Source: Candidatus Thalassarchaeum sp. | GTDB lineage: Archaea > Thermoplasmatota > Poseidoniia > Poseidoniales > Thalassarchaeaceae | Assembly: GCA_965658085.1 (NCBI GenBank) | Contig: CBFHQW010000001.1 | Location: forward strand, 1 to 50,423 | Direction of reading: 5' to 3' | DNA: 50,423 nucleotides | Shown here: positions 3,801 through 44,165 of the stretch, piece after piece | Layout: every line of letters starts with the position of its first letter | How positions within the stretch are numbered: position 1 is the stretch's first letter | Made by a program: the position numbers and the translations under genes | Notes under the pieces: model-generated | What the model was told of the DNA's origin: nothing | Databases searched by the model: none | Seen by the model: only the letters and a program-made list of their open reading frames with translations

Positions 3801-4779
3801 TGCTGACGACATTATTGAGCCAATGACTCCTGATGATTGTGCTGATGTAGTCGGAATAGGAAGTCCCGCCGAGTTGCTGGGCCGCTCAAGTGGCGAGTTT
3901 ACAAATGTCGAAGTGTTAAATCATACATCAGGGTTTACTGACGTTTCCGATATTGTATATGAGGCGGCACCATACTCAATGGAGCTTGGCCAGCCAGCGC
4001 CCTACATGATGATGCTCGCCATCATAGGTATAGCCAGCCTGATTGCGATTTGGTGGCTTCTGGAGACGGTGCTGAAGTCGCCGTGGGGACGGATACTCCG
4101 TTCTATCAGGGAGGACGAGGAGGTCGCGCAGCACCACGGGCACGATGTATTGACGCACAAGGCGGCAAGCCTAGCACTCGGTGCTGCTATCGCAGGGTTT
4201 GCGGGAGCTCTTTGGGCTTGGAAACTCACAGGCTTCCAACCATCCTTCATGGCTCCTGCGAGATCCACATTCCTAGTCTGGGCCGCTTTCGTGATTGGCG
4301 GAGCGGCCAACAACAAGGGAATGATCATCGGCGCTTTCATCTACGTCATCATGGAATTCGTCTTCAATGTCCTAGTGGCTGGACAGGGCTCATCAGATCT
4401 CCCACTCAATGAAACTGCTGCCATGATCGATCGCTTCTTTGAGTGGATGGTAACAGGTAGTGAACTCTGGTTCTGGCCGCACTTCACTCCGTTAGAGACC
4501 TTCCTTGCGATTGTAGTGATAGGCCTCTTGACCAATAAATGGGGCATAGTCGAATCGGGTCTTTGTGGTGCCACAGTATTCGCCGCGAACTGGGTGCTCC
4601 TAGGTGAGCGCTCGATAGATGAGGGCTTCATCACCGGCGCAATTCTTGCTGACATGGCTTACGTCAAGGTCCTGCTGATTGGCTTGATGATAGTATTCTC
4701 ACTGAAGTACAACCCGAAGGGTCTGTTGCCCGAAGTCCCGAGCAGACCACCCCGTCGCACCGGAGGTGAAGCCGAATGA
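814..4779 (+). CDS. Fused LivH-LivM branched-chain amino acid ABC transporter permease with large insertions
   Basis: 1321-aa ORF. Residues ~140-505 are LivH-like (GLTLTYKVQRYGNFAQSEFFMLGMY; GRRMRAVADNPDLAASSGINV). Residues ~830-1300 are LivM-like (ALNLHTGVTGMVNFG; LRMDYFAIVTISLGEIVR; SPWGRILRSIREDEEVA). The stop overlaps the livG start (ATGA at 4776-4779). The start is uncertain: GTG 814 or ATG 823. Confidence 0.8.
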   Translation: MISMLDSQLSRWNSLSRGSRRTAIALLIIIDANIGLLNGWGLLNLLDSLSGGNVPNDMVWLLQVIESISGGFFLVKILFDDVPASWPRSIAIALSPIFLLFMVGMSLDNLFKGLNDDVRLTLDLISIGTSTLTWSSTYLAIAVGLTLTYKVQRYGNFAQSEFFMLGMYLSMVMVWSDYFFPMYDAPLDGTLAWSVLLWTLVAAFVLTGLAGIIIDRLVYRGFRKKEASPQVMMIASLGVALALRAITYLRFGAGKKMFEPDADWRVPTLRWDIPTQKLRLNLGVRDLEDGDTYTHGGCEAVGTDEAGAPLYEHITSEGSKPLFDMYNLANDCVTEATTGYAYYKGAIPVLVFSSVILLLILLRKTRLGRRMRAVADNPDLAASSGINVERIQLTSAFLSAGISGMGGAIFAMTLRFTPETAFTLLLPSFAVIVLGTIGSIPGAIVGSLIVGFVRALSSPVLIGIGLPLGRSNYTALDGVMPYVFLVAILMIMPEGIGSAWEKWKVDRLRKRAEEKPSKKLGAILAISPLGVLGAHNFQQRKNARGESMMIVTIGAYVFSRITRFIAGNSFAQGSCSADCQDSGSVATNFEMVTGRTDGEFVLTDSPFTESDVQSSPPSDMDSTATEQWLADALADLNNSWMDLMNTELGFVNTLVDLGDVIWPTVPILVWLIAVIEGYFLFQGREDDALEPLTDFISNLTAPITQSRNSSSVAVTQALGSARAPLDSFHTTMYNSLDSFQSGFDRKGKYMLLTVLVIILTTAAPPFFARALLILLLLWIVGLALLAWKTGDPPLGELRRLAPYGRESPFGSWVAFISLLVFLLLFVEWLPVAESENQTFIKTLQVSNVLLTLSIFSLMAFALNLHTGVTGMVNFGIIFFVGVGAITVGILTAPKELHGYDWPIFWAVVAGVLLSAVFGWLLAYPTARLRMDYFAIVTISLGEIVRVLLMGEPLLRAGSWGSSIGISRYPMPFERWWFCGNTVPNKLLMGSDFLFGTADDIIEPMTPDDCADVVGIGSPAELLGRSSGEFTNVEVLNHTSGFTDVSDIVYEAAPYSMELGQPAPYMMMLAIIGIASLIAIWWLLETVLKSPWGRILRSIREDEEVAQHHGHDVLTHKAASLALGAAIAGFAGALWAWKLTGFQPSFMAPARSTFLVWAAFVIGGAANNKGMIIGAFIYVIMEFVFNVLVAGQGSSDLPLNETAAMIDRFFEWMVTGSELWFWPHFTPLETFLAIVVIGLLTNKWGIVESGLCGATVFAANWVLLGERSIDEGFITGAILADMAYVKVLLIGLMIVFSLKYNPKGLLPEVPSRPPRRTGGEAE

Positions 4780-38875: not shown

Positions 38876-39991
38876 CTAGTGGTTGTGCTCACCACCGCCT
38901 TCACCCGCCGCCTCATCCCAGCACGAGTCTTCAGGGTCGCTAGCCGCCCCCTCCTCCTTCAGACAGGGGTGGTGGTTGGTGAAGACGTCGAATTCGGTTA
39001 GCCAAGGCTCGATAATCCATGCATGTGTCATCCAGTAATCGTCCAGATACACATTGGTTCCATCCCGATAATGGCAGTCCTCATCGCTGATGTCCTCGCC
39101 GACCGCTTGGAAACTGGAGTTGGTGAAACAGAGCGTTTCGTGGACATGCCACCAGTCGTTGTCACCAGGGAACCCAGAGGGAGGGTTCTCTGAGTCTGTC
39201 TGCACGTACCATGCGAACCCGACGAGTTCCGCATCCTGCGCGTTGCTGGCGTACATCAAGAACTCCGGGCGTTCGAAATCGAAATCATTGTCCATCCTAG
39301 TGCCTGAGAACTCGGGGTTGAGGGGGTCGAAGCCGTCATTCTCCATCGAGAAGTCACCTAGCCGGACGTGATGCGTGCCCATGCCCATGACGTAGTCCAC
39401 CGCCATGTGGAATCCGTCGGCCTCGGCCTCGGCAAGTGTGGGCCACTGCATTGCCCACGCGATCACGTCTTCGAACTGCTCTGAAACATCGATACAGTCC
39501 TGCCATGACAGCATCCCCTTCGTCATCCCGTGATAGGCGGGGGCGAGGTGGTCCCCGTGCTCTTGGCCATCGCCGTGACCGGTGCCAGTCGATTGGCACC
39601 ACCACGGGCGCATCGACATGTCAACCTCGGAATCCGCGCAACCGTCGCTGGCCGCAGTTTCATTGGCAGGAGTGGAGGGGCATGAGTCATCAGCGTCAAC
39701 GAGACCATCGCCATCACCGTCCCTCTCAGTCGCACTGCATCCGCTCTCGTCCACATCCTCGCTAATCGGGGTCTGCGTGCACATATCGTCCGCGTCCGAG
39801 ATATCATCCCCATCACCGTCCTTCTGGCTCGCCGAACAGCCGTTTTCATCTACTACTTCGCCGATAGGGGTCAGCGTGCACAGGTCCAGCACGTCAGAGA
39901 CACCATCGACATCCTCGTCTACAGGTCCCATGCAACCGGAGAGTGAACTGCCTAGCAGTAGCAGGAATAACAACACAGCTCTAAGATTCAC
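38876..39991 (-). CDS. Lipoprotein with thrombospondin type-3-like Ca-binding repeats and a His-rich C-terminal domain
   Basis: Lipobox LSGC. Repeats of D.DGD..SD..D.C (DVDGVSDVLDLC, DGDGDDISDADDMC, DGDGDGLVDADDSC). The C-terminal domain carries GMGTHH and WWHVHE. Confidence 0.6.
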   Translation of the reverse strand: MNLRAVLLFLLLLGSSLSGCMGPVDEDVDGVSDVLDLCTLTPIGEVVDENGCSASQKDGDGDDISDADDMCTQTPISEDVDESGCSATERDGDGDGLVDADDSCPSTPANETAASDGCADSEVDMSMRPWWCQSTGTGHGDGQEHGDHLAPAYHGMTKGMLSWQDCIDVSEQFEDVIAWAMQWPTLAEAEADGFHMAVDYVMGMGTHHVRLGDFSMENDGFDPLNPEFSGTRMDNDFDFERPEFLMYASNAQDAELVGFAWYVQTDSENPPSGFPGDNDWWHVHETLCFTNSSFQAVGEDISDEDCHYRDGTNVYLDDYWMTHAWIIEPWLTEFDVFTNHHPCLKEEGAASDPEDSCWDEAAGEGGGEHNH

Positions 39992-40024: not shown

Positions 40025-40528
40025 TCATTCAAACGAATCACTTCCTTTCCAGTCATTGATATCTACTCCTTCACCTTGGAACAGCACCCTTGAGCGTCTA
40101 TATTCTGGGAGAAAATACCCTATCATGGAACGCTCACCAAAACTCCATTTCCAAGGGCAGCGGGGGAGCGAATCACTCCATTCTCTCAATAATGAACTCC
40201 AACTTTCCAGTTCCATCCGGCGCGGAATCTCAAATGATACTGTGGATAGTCTCCCAGCCGAACCCGGAACGTAGGACCATGAGCGTATGGAGAGGCCGGC
40301 AGCCTCGCCATCTTCCACGACCAGTCCGATTACCCTCGCCTGCCTTGATATTGGGACGATGATGGCCCATCTGTGGACCATCCGCGACTCCTGAATCCGC
40401 CTCATATCCCATCCGTGCGCCTCTCCGATCTCGCGTAAAGCGCGGATGGCATCAGTAGGGGCGATGCTGACTGGAATCTCAAGTAGCCGGCTAGACGCCA
40501 TCGCCTCGGCCTCTAGGCTCTCGCCCAT
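40025..40528 (-). CDS. Hypothetical cytoplasmic protein
   Basis: 167-aa ORF downstream of rpl12 on the same strand. No motif recognised. Confidence 0.4.
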   Translation of the reverse strand: MGESLEAEAMASSRLLEIPVSIAPTDAIRALREIGEAHGWDMRRIQESRMVHRWAIIVPISRQARVIGLVVEDGEAAGLSIRSWSYVPGSAGRLSTVSFEIPRRMELESWSSLLREWSDSLPRCPWKWSFGERSMIGYFLPEYRRSRVLFQGEGVDINDWKGSDSFE

Positions 40529-40560: not shown

Positions 40561-40875
40561 TTAGCCGAAGAGGGAGCCGAGGCCTTCGAAGCCAGCGTCC
40601 TCCTCCTCAGGCTCTTCCTCTGCAGCCGCTTCCTCAGCCGGAGCCGCCTCAGCGCCACCGCCGCCAGAGGCAGCAGGTGCGGCTGAAGCAACCGGAGCTG
40701 CCACGGCGGTAGCCATGGCCTCACCAATATCGACGGAGCCCAAAGATGCGACTAGAGCCTTAACTCGGCCTCCGTCAGCATCCACTCCAGCAGCGGTCAA
40801 AACCGCGCTTACAGCGTCTTCGTCAATATTCTTCTCAGCAGAGTGCAGTAACATTGCAGCATATACATATTCCAT
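40561..40875 (-). CDS. rpl12: Ribosomal stalk protein P1 (aL12)
   Basis: [17 protein letters not shown]... with an Ala/Glu-rich linker and the [12 protein letters not shown] tail. SD AAGGTGA lies upstream of ATG 40875. Confidence 0.92.
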
Positions 40876-40925
40876 TTTTTTCACCTTTTTTTATTTGAGG
40901 AATCACCCGGGCCGTTGAACTCGGC

Positions 40926-41873
40926 TTACTCCTCTTCCCCCTCTTCCACTCCGTCCGGTGCTTCAGCACCAGAATCCGAGTCAGCCGCATCGGAGGCGAC
41001 GGCGTCAGCGCCCGAGAGCGCTGAGGAATCTAATTGGCCAGAGATGGCCATAGCATGCGCGTTCGCGCGCGTAATGAACAGTGAAACAGTGTCATCATTG
41101 ACCACTCCAGCTTCTATGGCGACAGACATCGCCTCGCTGCTGGCCTTGGACAGCAGCGTGGGCATAGTGGTCGTTGAGAACCATCGTGTGTTACATGCCA
41201 AGTTGAAGGCGCCCGAGGTTGCTGAGATAACATCGTTCTTGAAACCGTCTAGATCGAGATTTAGGGATGAGGCAGGGAATACGATTCCACCCTCTACAGC
41301 TCCAGTCAGGATTAGCCCGATTTCTATCGGAGTTATTCCCAGTTTGGCCAGCATGATCCCAAGGTCGCCGGAGATAATTTCACCCTCGTTGACGACGGTA
41401 ACAGTCTTCTGGATGGCGACCTTGCCCTTGTCTATCTTGGCTGGTATGCCCACTGCGTTGAACTCACCCACGATAGGTCCCGGTCCGAACTCGGTCGGAC
41501 CTTTTTCGACCACAATGTCTGAGGGGGCCTTCTCACCCTCCTTAGCCGCGCGACCCTGACGGGTTTTATCGAGTTCAGCAAACAATTCGAATGAATTCAG
41601 ACTCTCAGAATGCACTATACAGGGCTGGACAGCTCCATCGAGCAGTGAGTTGAGACTATCTTCGGGCAAGCCGGCCTGTTCCCAAGCAATCCTAATCAGC
41701 GTCTTCTTGGCCATCGTCATCGTCATCCTGTCGCGCAGCGAGCTGCGCATGTCCAGCATGTTCCCGGCGGGTACTCCACCGATATCCACAATCCCGACGA
41801 TGCCATCGTTGGAGAGTATCTCTGTGAGTTCGGACACCCGGTCCTTCTTCCAAGGCGCCACCTTGGCCATCAT
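40926..41873 (-). CDS. rpl10: Ribosomal protein uL10 (P0)
   Basis: MMAKVAPWKKDRVSEL... with an acidic C-terminal tail. ATGA overlap with the rpl1 stop (41870-41873). Confidence 0.9.
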   Translation of the reverse strand: MMAKVAPWKKDRVSELTEILSNDGIVGIVDIGGVPAGNMLDMRSSLRDRMTMTMAKKTLIRIAWEQAGLPEDSLNSLLDGAVQPCIVHSESLNSFELFAELDKTRQGRAAKEGEKAPSDIVVEKGPTEFGPGPIVGEFNAVGIPAKIDKGKVAIQKTVTVVNEGEIISGDLGIMLAKLGITPIEIGLILTGAVEGGIVFPASSLNLDLDGFKNDVISATSGAFNLACNTRWFSTTTMPTLLSKASSEAMSVAIEAGVVNDDTVSLFITRANAHAMAISGQLDSSALSGADAVASDAADSDSGAEAPDGVEEGEEE

Positions 41874-42514
41874 TCGATTACCTCCACCTTGACGGAGGGC
41901 CCCATTGAGGTCTTGATGTAGCACGAGCGGATGTTCCCAGCTCCCCTCTCTAGTTTGCCAGTGACCCGGTTCCAGATTGCCATCGCGTTAGTGGTGAGGT
42001 CGTCGACCCCCTGCTCACGCGAGCCCATTGCGGTGTGGAAGGTGATACGGTCTCGTGATCTGACAATCGCAGTATCCTTGAGCCCGGCGGCAATCATTCC
42101 AGGGTCTAGATTAGGAGGGACTGGGCGAGGCATCTTGCCACGCGGCCCTAGTACAACACCGAGGAATCTTCCTACGGTTCCCATATGGGGTATCTCGGAC
42201 AAGAAGAAGTCACTCTTGTTGGCCATTTTGCGGGCTTGCTGTCGGTTACCACCCAAATCTTCGATGGTGGATGGATCTATGACGTTAATTCCGGCGGCCT
42301 TGGCTTTGGTTGCCATCTCGCCGCCAGCAAACATCGTGATGCGTATCGGTTTGCCCCTTCCGGTAGGCAGTCGAACCTCTTCCTGAATCCTGTTCGTTGG
42401 ATTCTTCAGATCAACGTCCCTGAGCGTGAAAGCAATTTCGACTGACTCGACGAACTTGCGCTCCGGCGATTCATCGAGAGCCTGTTGAATCGCGCTCTGA
42501 ATATTTTCTTGCAT
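41870..42514 (-). CDS. rpl1: Ribosomal protein uL1
   Basis: 214 aa, with ...RKFVESVEIAFTLRDVDLK... and GKMP.P typical of uL1. SD GGAGGTGG upstream. Confidence 0.9.
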   Translation of the reverse strand: MQENIQSAIQQALDESPERKFVESVEIAFTLRDVDLKNPTNRIQEEVRLPTGRGKPIRITMFAGGEMATKAKAAGINVIDPSTIEDLGGNRQQARKMANKSDFFLSEIPHMGTVGRFLGVVLGPRGKMPRPVPPNLDPGMIAAGLKDTAIVRSRDRITFHTAMGSREQGVDDLTTNAMAIWNRVTGKLERGAGNIRSCYIKTSMGPSVKVEVIE

Positions 42515-42567: not shown

Positions 42568-42846
42568 TCAACTGAAATGTTCGCTAAACCTACCCTCACT
42601 CATCGCTTGTAAAGCATCCTTTGGTGCCATACCCTCGACATTCACTCTCATTGAGACACAAGTGCCCATAATCTCACGGCTTCGGGCGTATAGATTGGCA
42701 CCCGTAAGCCGGTCCTTCTGGTCCTCTGCCAACTTCTTGATCTGATCCATAGTCAGGTTCTCAGAAGACTCCTCCCAGGAGCCGTTGCACGTCTTCTGTC
42801 CGAGCATCTGAATCACCTTGTGTGGCGTTTCATTACGTGCAGACAT
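42568..42846 (-). CDS. rpl11: Ribosomal protein uL11, C-terminal (rRNA-binding) domain only
   Basis: ENLTMDQIKKLAEDQKDRLTGANLYARSREIMGTCVSMRVNVEG aligns to the archaeal L11 C-terminal domain (GNLTLEQVIKIAKMKKD...LGTCGSMGVTVEG). There is no GPPLGPALG N-terminal domain. SD AGGAGGA and an in-frame TAA lie just upstream of the ATG. Confidence 0.8.
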   Translation of the reverse strand: MSARNETPHKVIQMLGQKTCNGSWEESSENLTMDQIKKLAEDQKDRLTGANLYARSREIMGTCVSMRVNVEGMAPKDALQAMSEGRFSEHFS

Positions 42847-42904
42847 CGGTTATATCCTCCTGTTAGTGCGCCCCGCCGACCTGCTTTCCCTATTTGAGAG
42901 TGAT

Positions 42905-42924
42905 GCAACGCCCGTAGGGCGTGC
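42905..42924 (-). promoter_or_regulatory. Small GC-rich hairpin in the spt5-rpl11 spacer
   Basis: ACGCCC-GTA-GGGCGT (plus-strand reading), with two extra GC pairs across a bulge. Confidence 0.25.
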
Positions 42925-42932
42925 CTTCAGCA

Positions 42933-43799
42933 CTACTCAACGCGCTGGGTGACCCTAACTTGGTCGGCGCGTACTGTGAGAGCGACTGGCACTGCTGCTT
43001 CGAAGAGCTCGACAGTAACCTCTTCTTTCGACTCTGTCACACGGGTCACACGGGCCGCTTGACCTCGGAAGGCGCCGCCGTGAATCTCCACGATGCTACC
43101 CTCTTCGATGCCGGCAGTCGCCGCCTTGGGCTCAAGATAGGGAAGCACATCGCCTAGTGGCGACTCACCGCCGAGTACCTTGCGACAGTTCTTCATCGGC
43201 GTTGTGGAGACACCGACGCGACCGATGAGCTTCTCGACGTGATGTAGAGCTGAGGCTTCGACGAAGATGTAGCCACGCATGAAGTGGGGGCTGAGGACGC
43301 CGAAGATCTCGTCCTGAATTTCTTTGAGCGAACCAGTACCTGAGAGCCGGGCACGAACCTCCCTAGCTACGTTCTGCTCTTGACCAATGGAGGTCTTGAG
43401 GATGTAGAGGTAGGAAGCGACGTCGCCGTACATATCACGCAGTTGGGGGGTGGTGTAATCTCTCTCCTGAATGGTTCCCGGGTCAATCCACTCGCAGCCC
43501 TTGTACAGGCCACGAGCATCGACCTCCTCGACAGAGCTGACGAAGAGAAGTGGCGTGACTTCATTGAGTCGATTTTCGTAGGCTAGACCGCGGGCGCCGC
43601 CCGAACGTACGTACTGCAGATTGTCAGCCTCAATACCTGTGACCTCAGTTATCCTGGCCACCACTGCATCTAGATCCTCAGGGTCACCGATACCATAGAT
43701 ACCGTCCCAGGCGCCAGGGAAGTCTGCGACTCCATCGGCGCGCTGCATGAGCAACACTCTCTCTCCGTTTCGGATGTAGACCGTGAACGCATCTGACAT
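42933..43799 (-). CDS. spt5: Transcription elongation factor Spt5 (NGN + KOW) with an N-terminal Nudix-fold extension
   Basis: Residues ~131-288: LYILKTSIGQEQNVA...GYIFVEA (NGN), then GSIVEIHGGAFRGQAARVTRV...EVTVEL (KOW). Residues 1-~122: VYIRNGERVLLMQRA...PGAWDGIYGIGDPEDLDAVVARITEVTGIE...CEWIDP (Nudix-like). Confidence 0.85.
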   Translation of the reverse strand: MSDAFTVYIRNGERVLLMQRADGVADFPGAWDGIYGIGDPEDLDAVVARITEVTGIEADNLQYVRSGGARGLAYENRLNEVTPLLFVSSVEEVDARGLYKGCEWIDPGTIQERDYTTPQLRDMYGDVASYLYILKTSIGQEQNVAREVRARLSGTGSLKEIQDEIFGVLSPHFMRGYIFVEASALHHVEKLIGRVGVSTTPMKNCRKVLGGESPLGDVLPYLEPKAATAGIEEGSIVEIHGGAFRGQAARVTRVTESKEEVTVELFEAAVPVALTVRADQVRVTQRVE

Positions 43800-43809
43800 T
43801 TTTCTTACC

Positions 43810-44073
43810 TCACTCTGTTAGCCAATTGAAGAAGGATGGGAGGGCACTATCCATCATCCACAGCATCGCGAATCCGATTGCGCCGAGGATAAACATCCCT
43901 ATGCCACAAACGATTACGGTCTGGCGAAACTCCTGCTTGGATGGCTTCCTTGCCATCTTTAGAATACGAGCATAAGAACCGGTTTGAAGGCTGCGAACAC
44001 GCCCTTCAATCTCGTCCTGCCAACTCTGAACAGTCTCCTCGATGGGACCTATATTGGAACTCTCGATAGCCAT
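43810..44073 (-). CDS. secE: Preprotein translocase subunit SecE (Sec61 gamma)
   Basis: ARKPSKQEFRQTVIVCGIGMFILGAIGFAMLWMM, in the conserved position before spt5. ATG 44073 is preferred to the longer ORF-track start. Confidence 0.8.
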   Translation of the reverse strand: MAIESSNIGPIEETVQSWQDEIEGRVRSLQTGSYARILKMARKPSKQEFRQTVIVCGIGMFILGAIGFAMLWMMDSALPSFFNWLTE

Positions 44074-44165
44074 CACTAACCCTCGAAGCGACCCGGCGAC
44101 CAACAGACTCCATTTAAGCACGCCGGGCGAGCCCTAAGGGGCTCGAAATCAAATCAGAGTAATAA

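What the first reader, a model, noticed from the sequence alone, without database searches (positions are those of the whole stretch)
42568..42932. The L11 gene encodes only the C-terminal domain; the factor-binding N-terminal domain is absent from its conserved locus
In the conserved secE-spt5-rpl11-rpl1-rpl10-rpl12 cluster, the rpl11 ORF is 92 aa rather than about 160. It aligns with archaeal L11 from roughly residue 70 onward, which is the rRNA-binding C-terminal domain. The spacer to spt5 is only 86 nt, far too short for the ~70 missing codons. It contains a strong SD (AGGAGGA), an in-frame TAA 6 nt before the ATG, and a small hairpin (42905-42924). The upstream DNA is occupied by an intact Spt5 KOW domain, so a simple frameshift cannot restore the N-terminal domain. 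In established ribosome biology this domain contacts translational GTPases at the stalk base. Its loss or relocation would change the GTPase-associated centre.
Basis: partly seen in the sequence, partly recalled or inferred. Interest (0 to 1): 0.7.

Follow-up and report, generated by a model that had tools for sequence, protein, structure and literature searches.

The report
Ocean archaea's half-size ribosomal protein L11
In Marine Group II archaea (Poseidoniales), among the most abundant archaea in surface seawater, the ribosomal protein uL11 gene encodes only the rRNA-binding half. The half that normally touches translation factors and forms the thiopeptide antibiotic pocket is missing across the order.

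Summary
Window 42568..42846 (-) encodes a 92-aa uL11 with only the C-terminal rRNA-binding domain. It sits in the canonical SecE-Spt5-L11-L1-P0-P1 cluster, 86 nt after Spt5, and a stop lies one codon before its ATG.

It is not an artefact. The same 92-aa gene is found in 342 species-representative genomes. All 80 fetched, MAGs and single-cell genomes, are Marine Group II. It is under strong purifying selection (dN/dS about 0.05), has a conserved promoter-like block and SD, and is transcribed in situ.

Three more divergent short types (91, 93, 101 aa; 36-42% identical) occupy the same locus in other Poseidoniales. The truncation is therefore old and order-wide.

A validated N-terminal-domain HMM finds nothing in 1.47 Mb around 88 such loci. 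A published gene table of an 82-92% complete MAG lists one L11-family gene, the short one. I could not scan whole genomes, so relocation is unlikely but not excluded.

Best reading: the N-terminal domain was truly lost, so the stalk base is remodelled and probably thiopeptide-insensitive. Similar short L11 genes occur in a few other archaeal lineages. I found no prior description. Verdict: new variant of a known kind.

The parts
42568..42846 (-). uL11 (rpl11) gene encoding the C-terminal rRNA-binding domain only, 92 aa
   Evidence: PF00298 only. NF002232 model positions 81-158 of 164. The AF2 model (pLDDT 83) superposes on the C-terminal half of M. jannaschii L11 (5d8h_C, TMq 0.84, rmsd 1.6 A). 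dN/dS about 0.05.
42847..42932 (-). 86-nt Spt5-L11 spacer. It holds a conserved promoter-like block (42874-42905, with TATA-like TCAAATAG at 42890-42897), SD AGGAGGA (42855-42861), an in-frame TAA (42850-42852) and a small hairpin (42908-42922).
   Evidence: The block CATCAC.CTCAAATAGGGAAAGCAGGTCGGCG and a GGAGG-type SD are conserved at the same distance from the ATG in all type-A loci. No L11 N-terminal-domain coding potential in any frame. Its role as a promoter is inferred.
42933..43799 (-). Spt5 (NGN + KOW) with an extra N-terminal NUDIX domain, 288 aa
   Evidence: PF03439 at aa 131-193, PF00467 at aa 234-264, TIGR00405 at aa 132-286. PF00293 NUDIX at aa 4-110, E 1.8e-4.
41870..42514 (-). 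uL1 gene, 214 aa
   Evidence: PF00687, E 2.5e-40.
40926..41873 (-). uL10/P0 gene, 315 aa from the MMAKV start. It ends before the usual C-terminal GLGDLFG factor-binding tail.
   Evidence: PF00466 + PF17777. An in-frame stop precedes a decaying tail remnant.
40561..40875 (-). P1 (archaeal L12) stalk protein gene with an intact GLGSLFG tail
   Evidence: PF00428. Tail seen.
43810..44121 (-). SecE gene
   Evidence: PF00584.

Best explanation
The window comes from a Marine Group II archaeon of the order Poseidoniales, family Thalassarchaeaceae, close to Ca. Thalassarchaeum. Its only detectable uL11 gene encodes just the C-terminal domain. That domain binds helices 43/44 of 23S rRNA at the base of the P stalk.

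The roughly 66-residue N-terminal domain was deleted cleanly at the interdomain linker in an ancestor of the order. The new start codon sits about where residue 67 of M. jannaschii L11 would be.

The short gene has its own promoter-like element and Shine-Dalgarno site in the 86-nt spacer after Spt5. It probably heads the L11-L1-P0-P1 transcription unit.

Shown: the domain content, the conserved locus, the lineage-wide distribution, purifying selection and transcription.

Inferred: these ribosomes assemble a stalk base with the C-terminal domain alone. Translational GTPases (aEF1A, aEF2, aIF5B) are then recruited through the P0/P1 tails and the sarcin-ricin loop, without the uL11 N-terminal domain. 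The cleft between that domain and H43/H44, where thiostrepton-class thiopeptides bind, does not exist, so the ribosomes should be intrinsically insensitive to those antibiotics.
For: - Domain content: (hhalign against the C-terminal domain 98% probability, against the N-terminal domain 0.3%).
- No room for an extension: a stop lies 1-35 codons upstream of the ATG in all 81 type-A genes.
- Distribution: 166 protein clusters, of which the 120 listed are almost all 92 aa, on hundreds of contigs up to 495 kb. 342 species-representative genomes, with the best 80 all Marine Group II MAGs and single-cell genomes.
- Age: three further short types occupy the same Spt5...L11-L1-P0-P1 locus. They are 93, 101 and 91 aa and 36-42% identical to each other and to type A. 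Their source names are 'Poseidoniales' and 'Thalassarchaeaceae'.
- Function retained: dN/dS 0.05-0.06, and 0.08 for the first 24 codons. The N-terminus MSARNETPH is invariant. The promoter-like block and SD are conserved.
- Expression: gene 1040 of SIMO Bin 19-2 has metatranscriptome coverage like the neighbouring L1 gene (PMC9723583 supplement 4).
- Absence of the N-terminal domain nearby: my HMM's best E-value is 3-5 in the six-frame translation of the window plus 87 loci, 1.47 Mb in all. The same HMM hits 38 control loci at 1e-11 to 1e-28.
- Absence genome-wide in one case: the gene table of SIMO Bin 19-2 (82.5-92.3% complete, about 1260 genes) has one gene with K02867/COG0080/arCOG04372, and it is the 279-bp one.
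- Plausibility: the C-terminal domain alone is a known stable rRNA-binding unit (L11-C76 structures 1fow and 1hc8 appear among the fold matches). Bacteria lacking L11 and yeast lacking its orthologue are viable. L11 loss or N-terminal-domain lesions give thiopeptide resistance (PMC11731312; PMC2175356).
Against: - I could not scan complete Poseidoniales genomes for PF03946, so a very divergent, relocated or fused N-terminal domain is not excluded.
- The one whole-MAG table is 82-92% complete. It relies on eggNOG/KEGG annotation, and its Pfam column did not even flag the short L11.
- No ribosome structure, proteomics or biochemistry exists for this uncultured group. All consequences for factor binding and antibiotic sensitivity are inferred from bacteria, yeast and M. 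jannaschii.
- The L11 C-terminal domain is the fastest-evolving protein of the cluster between families: 36-42% identity against 64-73% for L1. That could mean altered or relaxed function rather than a simple 'same job minus one domain'.
Confidence: 0.8

Rival explanations
1. Gene fission with relocation. The N-terminal domain survives as a separate small gene or as a fusion to another protein elsewhere in Poseidoniales genomes, and joins the stalk base in trans.
For: Whole genomes could not be scanned. A natural split exists elsewhere: in locus L088 an in-frame TAG at the domain boundary separates a 62-aa PF03946 ORF from a 93-aa PF00298 ORF, in three cluster members. The Tully pangenome assigns K02867 to four gene clusters, and one of them could in principle be an N-terminal-domain gene.
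Against: - In L088, the only split example found, the two halves stay adjacent. No Marine Group II type (A-D) has anything N-terminal-domain-like within 10 kb.
- SIMO Bin 19-2 lists a single L11-family gene.
- Four gene clusters match the four divergent short types found here.
- From established structures, the N-terminal domain is held on the ribosome mainly through its tether to the C-terminal domain. A free domain would have little affinity (inference).
Confidence: 0.1
2. Remnant paralogue. A full-length rpl11 lies elsewhere in the genome, and this 92-aa ORF is a decaying or neofunctionalised copy.
For: Only that genome-wide absence was not tested directly, and that the short protein is unusually divergent between families.
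Against: - It occupies the orthologous position between Spt5 and L1 in every genome.
- dN/dS is about 0.05 with no disrupted copies among 81.
- The promoter-like block and SD are conserved.
- It is transcribed at a level like L1, and it is the only L11-family gene in an 82-92% complete MAG.
- A phmmer search of 1.84 billion representatives returned no full-length L11 closer than 43% identity. Those nearest ones were named as DPANN or Bathyarchaeota.
Confidence: 0.04
3. Assembly, binning or gene-calling artefact at the Spt5-L11 junction.
For: None found.
Against: The same junction appears in independent assemblies from ENA, JGI, NCBI, Logan and Tara, in single-cell genomes (AG-313-L18, AG-447-I14, AH-287-M04 and others) and on contigs up to 495 kb. 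The spacer sequence is conserved block by block.
Confidence: 0.01

Closest known systems
Canonical archaeal uL11 (L11P; NCBIfam NF002232; Pfam PF03946 + PF00298), e.g. M. jannaschii L11 in the P-stalk base complex 5d8h/5col
   Same: Same C-terminal domain fold (TMq 0.84, rmsd 1.6 A over 87 columns) and the same archaeal C-terminal helix ending ...EHF. Same position between Spt5 and L1.
   Different: Lacks the whole N-terminal domain (about residues 1-66). Scores 55.6 bits against the 162-bit equivalog cut-off. It has a lineage-specific CNGSW motif in the RNA-binding loop. NCBI names it 'hypothetical protein'.
Laboratory L11 C-terminal fragments (L11-C76; PDB 1fow, 1hc8, 1y39) bound to the 58-nt GTPase-centre RNA
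   Same: A C-terminal domain that folds and binds rRNA on its own. These chains are among the fold matches.
   Different: Those are engineered bacterial fragments. Here the fragment is the natural gene product of a whole order.
L11-deficient or N-terminal-domain-mutant thiopeptide-resistant bacteria (B. subtilis delta-rplK, Pro22 deletion; PMC11731312) and yeast lacking L12/uL11 (PMC2175356)
   Same: They show that life without the uL11 N-terminal domain, or without uL11, is possible and removes the thiopeptide target.
   Different: Those are laboratory mutants with a growth cost, selected under drug. Here the state is ancient, fixed and under purifying selection in very abundant wild populations.
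Lineage-specific ribosomal protein losses (CPR bacteria lacking L30/L9/L1, DPANN, tiny-genome symbionts) (recalled from memory, not checked here)
   Same: Natural simplification of a universally conserved ribosome component in an uncultured lineage.
   Different: Here one domain of a protein is lost, not a whole protein. The host is a free-living planktonic heterotroph, not a reduced symbiont, and the loss is at a functional centre.

Membership tests
uL11 / archaeal L11P (NF002232 equivalog) | C-terminal rRNA-binding domain (PF00298) | tested here: met
   PF00298 at 26.5 bits (cut-off 21.4). hhalign 98.2% probability. Fold match to 5d8h_C.
uL11 / archaeal L11P (NF002232 equivalog) | N-terminal factor-contacting domain (PF03946) | tested here: not met
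   No Pfam hit. The N-terminal-domain HMM is negative in six frames of the window and 87 loci. hhalign 0.3% probability.
uL11 / archaeal L11P (NF002232 equivalog) | Full-length score above the curated equivalog cut-off (162 bits) | tested here: not met
   55.6 bits, covering model positions 81-158 only.
uL11 / archaeal L11P (NF002232 equivalog) | Orthologous genomic position (SecE-Spt5-L11-L1-L10-L12 cluster) | tested here: met
uL11 / archaeal L11P (NF002232 equivalog) | Single-copy gene per genome, with no other L11 gene | tested here: inconclusive
   There is one K02867/COG0080 gene in the published table of one 82-92% complete MAG. Complete genomes could not be scanned.
uL11 / archaeal L11P (NF002232 equivalog) | Incorporation into the 50S subunit at H43/H44 | not testable with these tools
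   Needs proteomics or cryo-EM of Marine Group II ribosomes. Purifying selection and transcription are only indirect support.
Pseudogene / decaying remnant | Relaxed selection, disrupted copies, loss of expression signals | tested here: not met
   dN/dS 0.05-0.06, all 81 copies intact at 92 aa, conserved promoter-like block and SD, transcribed.

The most novel reading that the evidence does not exclude
The whole order Poseidoniales runs ribosomes whose GTPase-associated centre has no uL11 N-terminal domain at all, neither in cis nor in trans. In this window's sub-lineage P0 has also lost its factor-binding tail. This would be a natural, ancient and successful remodelling of a site conserved in all three domains of life. 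It would make these archaea intrinsically immune to thiopeptides. The same loss has happened independently in several other archaeal lineages.
Probability: 0.7. Interest if true: 0.7.

Novelty: new variant of a known kind. Interest (0 to 1): 0.62.

Why it matters
- The uL11 N-terminal domain is treated as a universal part of the ribosome's GTPase-associated centre. It moves with EF-G/eEF2, contacts the stalk proteins, and forms the thiostrepton/micrococcin pocket with H43/H44.
- A hugely abundant free-living lineage that has done without it for a long evolutionary time is a natural experiment. It shows what the domain is really needed for, and how archaeal factors can be recruited by the P-stalk tails alone.
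- It predicts intrinsic thiopeptide resistance in Marine Group II.
- It has practical consequences. NCBI annotates the gene as 'hypothetical protein'. Marker sets that include PF03946 or full-length L11 models will under-score Marine Group II genome completeness. L11 is a poor phylogenetic marker for this group, because it is the fastest-evolving protein of the cluster.

Tried and rejected
- Hidden N-terminal domain in another frame, in the spacer or inside Spt5: rejected by six-frame HMM searches.
- The extra 130 aa at the Spt5 N-terminus as a displaced L11 N-terminal domain: rejected. It is a NUDIX domain.
- The three ORFs inserted between Spt5 and L11 in type-B loci: rejected. Their sequences are strongly hydrophobic (membrane-like, by eye) and have no N-terminal-domain similarity.
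- The conserved unknown ORF after P1 (40025-40528) as a substitute: no Pfam hit, and hhalign against the N-terminal domain gives 0.3%.
- Rfam scan of the window for leaders or regulatory RNAs: nothing.
- RNA structure in the spacer: not significant.
- Searching the protein database with the L081-type L11 found only itself. Its PurA is 44-47% identical to its nearest homologues, of which the top named ones are Methanomassiliicoccales/Thermoplasmatota and others are bacterial. That lineage stays unplaced.
- The nearest full-length L11 hits (P0142 and others) looked Marine Group II-like in one motif, but are DPANN or Bathyarchaeota.
- The state of the sister group Marine Group III could not be determined.
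- Literature searches for any prior mention of this truncation, and the supplements of Rinke 2018 and Orellana 2019, gave nothing.
- A database search with an N-terminal-domain query was considered and not run. Only the top 120 hits are shown, and canonical archaeal L11s would swamp any divergent Marine Group II domain.

Full report
**What is in the sequence**

On the minus strand the window carries the universal cluster, in this order:

| Gene | Coordinates (-) | Note |
|---|---|---|
| SecE | 43810..44121 | |
| Spt5 | 42933..43799 | 288 aa |
| L11 | 42568..42846 | 92 aa |
| L1 | 41870..42514 | |
| L10/P0 | 40926..41873 | |
| P1/L12 | 40561..40875 | |

- The L11 ORF hits only Pfam PF00298, the RNA-binding C-terminal domain.
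- The archaeal L11 equivalog NF002232 aligns its positions 81-158 of 164 to residues 15-91. The score is 55.6 bits against a cut-off of 162.
- PDB archaeal L11P chains (4v6u_BH, 5col_A, 1s72_I) align from about residue 79-95 to 158.
- An AlphaFold model built on 16 homologues (pLDDT 83) superposes on the C-terminal half of M. jannaschii L11 in the P-stalk base complex. The match is 5d8h_C, with TMq 0.84 and rmsd 1.6 A over 87 columns.
- By my count on a remembered M. jannaschii sequence, the start methionine corresponds to about residue 67. That is the interdomain linker.
The TAA lies one codon before the ATG, so the ORF cannot be extended.

**It is not an artefact or a private mutation**

- A protein search returned 166 clusters at 72-99% identity. 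Of the 120 listed, nearly all are exactly 92 aa. Sources name them Poseidoniales, Thalassarchaeaceae or Marine Group II, and they sit on hundreds of contigs up to 495 kb.
- A scan of one genome per GTDB species found 342 genomes encoding a relative. The best 80 loci are all Marine Group II MAGs or single-cell genomes.
- In all 81 sources the ORF is 92 aa, with an in-frame stop 1-35 codons upstream.
- The N-terminus MSARNETPH is invariant in the 16-sequence alignment.
- Pairwise dN/dS is 0.05-0.06, and 0.08 for the first 24 codons.
- The spacer carries a block conserved in all type-A loci, CATCAC.CTCAAATAGGGAAAGCAGGTCGGCG (window 42874-42905). It contains a TATA-like TCAAATAG about 48 nt before the ATG, followed by a GGAGG-type SD.
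- I read this block as the promoter of an L11-L1-P0-P1 unit. That is an inference.

**The truncation is old and order-wide**

A phmmer search of 1.84 billion representatives and cluster look-ups revealed further short L11 types:

| Type | Length | N-terminus | Source name / origin | Locus context |
|---|---|---|---|---|
| B | 93 aa | MPKPWTSH... | 'Poseidoniales', 316 contigs | SecE-Spt5, three ORFs, then L11-L1-P0-P1 |
| C | 101 aa | MSDNWTAR... | 'Thalassarchaeaceae' | FtsZ-SecE-Spt5-L11-L1-P0-P1 |
| D | 91 aa | | Tara contig | follows a Spt5 whose C-terminus closely resembles the type-B one |

- All sit in the same locus.
- In type B the three ORFs between Spt5 and L11 look like membrane proteins from their sequences.
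- The types are only 36-42% identical to one another. L1 is 64-73%, P0 50-62% and P1 64-71% identical in the same genomes.
- The domain was therefore lost before these families diverged, and the remaining half has evolved unusually fast between families.
- Tully's Marine Group II pangenome maps the L11 KO to four gene clusters, against one or two for other ribosomal proteins (PMC6336850 supplement 12). That fits four divergent types.

**Is the N-terminal domain somewhere else?**

- I built HMMs of the two domains from eight full-length L11 sequences written from memory.
- The C-terminal-domain HMM finds the short gene in every locus, at 1e-12 to 1e-21.
- The N-terminal-domain HMM finds nothing in six frames of the window plus 87 Marine Group II-type loci, about 1.47 Mb. 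Its best E-values are 3-5.
- Its sensitivity is shown by controls. It hits the adjacent N-terminal ORF in L088 at 1e-27. It hits 37 of 43 diverse archaeal L11 loci from JGI metagenomes at 1e-11 to 1e-28.
- Of the six loci without a hit, one is cut by a contig end and one is a copy of another. The rest are themselves short L11 genes (see below).
- For whole-genome evidence I found one published table, supplement 4 of PMC9723583. It lists the genes of SIMO Bin 19-2 (Thalassarchaeaceae genus O1, 82.5-92.3% complete, about 1260 genes).
- That table has exactly one gene carrying K02867/COG0080/arCOG04372. It is a 279-bp gene followed by L1 and P0, and its metatranscriptome coverage resembles that of L1.
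- I did not read every row. The table had moved on to the next MAG before the stored text was cut.
Relocation or fusion of a very divergent N-terminal domain is therefore unlikely, not excluded.

**Mechanism, with what is shown and what is inferred**

- Shown: the only detectable uL11 gene encodes a conserved, expressed C-terminal domain.
- From established ribosome biology and the papers read here, this domain alone binds H43/H44. The L11-C76 structures 1fow and 1hc8 are among the fold matches.
- The N-terminal domain contacts the stalk protein and the G domain during factor docking, and it is what thiostrepton or micrococcin pins to the rRNA (PMC3505967).
- B. subtilis delta-rplK and N-terminal-domain lesions are viable and fully resistant to a thiopeptide (PMC11731312).
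- Yeast lacking its uL11 orthologue grows very slowly but lives (PMC2175356).
- Inferred: Marine Group II ribosomes have a stalk base without the factor-contacting domain. They rely on the P0/P1 tails and the sarcin-ricin loop for GTPase recruitment, and they lack the thiopeptide pocket.
- Why the loss was fixed is unknown. Candidates are drug avoidance, streamlining, or compensation elsewhere.

**Further remodelling in this genome**

- Most Marine Group II P0 proteins end in the factor-binding tail GFGGLGDLFG.
- In the window and seven related loci, an in-frame stop precedes the tail. What follows the stop is a decaying remnant: *AEFNGPGDSS in the window, and an intact *AGFYGLGDLFG in L012.
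- This genome therefore lacks both the uL11 N-terminal domain and the P0 tail. P1 keeps its tail.

**Beyond Marine Group II**

Short L11 genes directly after Spt5 also occur on other contigs:

- L081: 94 aa, on a high-GC contig. Its PurA is 44-47% identical to its nearest homologues, of which the top named ones are Methanomassiliicoccales/Thermoplasmatota.
- L090: 96 aa, GC 35%, overlapping the stop of a normal 148-aa Spt5.
- L106 and L118: FtsZ-SecE-Spt5-L11(C-terminal domain)-L1, GC 34-35%.
- L119/L120: GC 38-40%.

The closest relatives of L090's protein are full-length, so these look like independent losses. They rest on short contigs of unplaced organisms.

**Comparison with what is known, and novelty**

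- The gene is the positional orthologue of rpl11 and has the family's C-terminal domain. It fails two defining features of the family, the N-terminal domain and the equivalog score. I file it as a domain-loss variant of uL11, not as a canonical member.
- Full-text searches combining L11/uL11/PF03946 with Marine Group II, Poseidoniales or Thermoplasmatota terms found no description of this.
- NCBI calls the protein 'hypothetical' and JGI calls it L11.
- To my knowledge, natural loss of this domain in a free-living lineage has not been described.

**Verdict**

The best explanation is true loss of the N-terminal domain (confidence 0.8). It is a new variant of a known kind, with interest 0.62.

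Noticed in passing
window 43410-43799 (-), N-terminal 130 aa of Spt5; also L082:7428-8342 and L085:9012-9926: Marine Group II Spt5 is 288-304 aa because a NUDIX domain (PF00293, E 1.8e-4, just above the gathering score) is fused in front of the NGN and KOW domains. By eye the Nudix box looks degenerate. The L081 lineage has an acidic low-complexity extension instead.
   Followed up: partly
window 40884-40928 (-), end of P0; also L002, L004, L005, L007, L012, L015, L016: An in-frame stop removes the conserved C-terminal GLGDLFG factor-binding tail of P0. The tail sequence is still readable after the stop: degenerate in the window (AEFNGPGDSS) and intact in L012 (AGFYGLGDLFG). Close relatives (L001, L003, L006) keep a normal tail, so the stop allele does not follow overall P0 similarity. 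Recombination, repeated loss or stop-codon readthrough are all possible.
   Followed up: partly
window 40025-40528 (-): A 167-aa ORF with no Pfam hit follows P1 in 64 of the loci (38-100% identity), in all three main Marine Group II types. It has no similarity to the L11 N-terminal domain (hhalign 0.3%). Function unknown.
   Followed up: partly
L088:180-650: In an unrelated archaeon (GC 58%) L11 is split exactly at the domain boundary by an in-frame TAG followed by GTG. This gives adjacent 62-aa N-terminal-domain and 93-aa C-terminal-domain ORFs. The cluster has three members from different sources. It could be a real fission, readthrough or TAG recoding.
   Followed up: no
L081:8228-8512, L090:615-905, L106:~1008-1301, L118:~946-1239, L120:~4490-4727: L11 genes with only the C-terminal domain, directly after Spt5, occur in several other unplaced archaeal lineages, mostly low-GC. 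The closest relatives of some of them have full-length L11, which suggests repeated independent loss.
   Followed up: partly
L082:8423-9886 (and L083, L084): In type-B Marine Group II loci, three hydrophobic ORFs that look like membrane proteins (234, 121 and 125 aa; the last two look like paralogues) are inserted between Spt5 and L11. This breaks an otherwise universal adjacency.
   Followed up: no
window 42568-42846 compared with L082 and L085: The L11 C-terminal domain is the most divergent ribosomal protein of the cluster between Marine Group II families (36-42% identity against 64-73% for L1). It carries a lineage-specific CNGSW motif in the loop that normally reads GSGxP.
   Followed up: partly
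window 38876-39991 (-): A 371-aa very acidic protein with an N-terminal signal-like segment and repeated D-x-D-G-D-G / Cys-containing motifs. These are reminiscent of calcium-binding repeats.
   Followed up: no
window 42908-42922 and the same position in related loci: The small hairpin after the Spt5 stop is confined to the window's sub-lineage, and only its loop varies (TAC, TGC, TTC, TTT). Other sub-lineages have a T-rich run there instead. That is consistent with a transcript-end signal for Spt5, which was not tested.
   Followed up: partly
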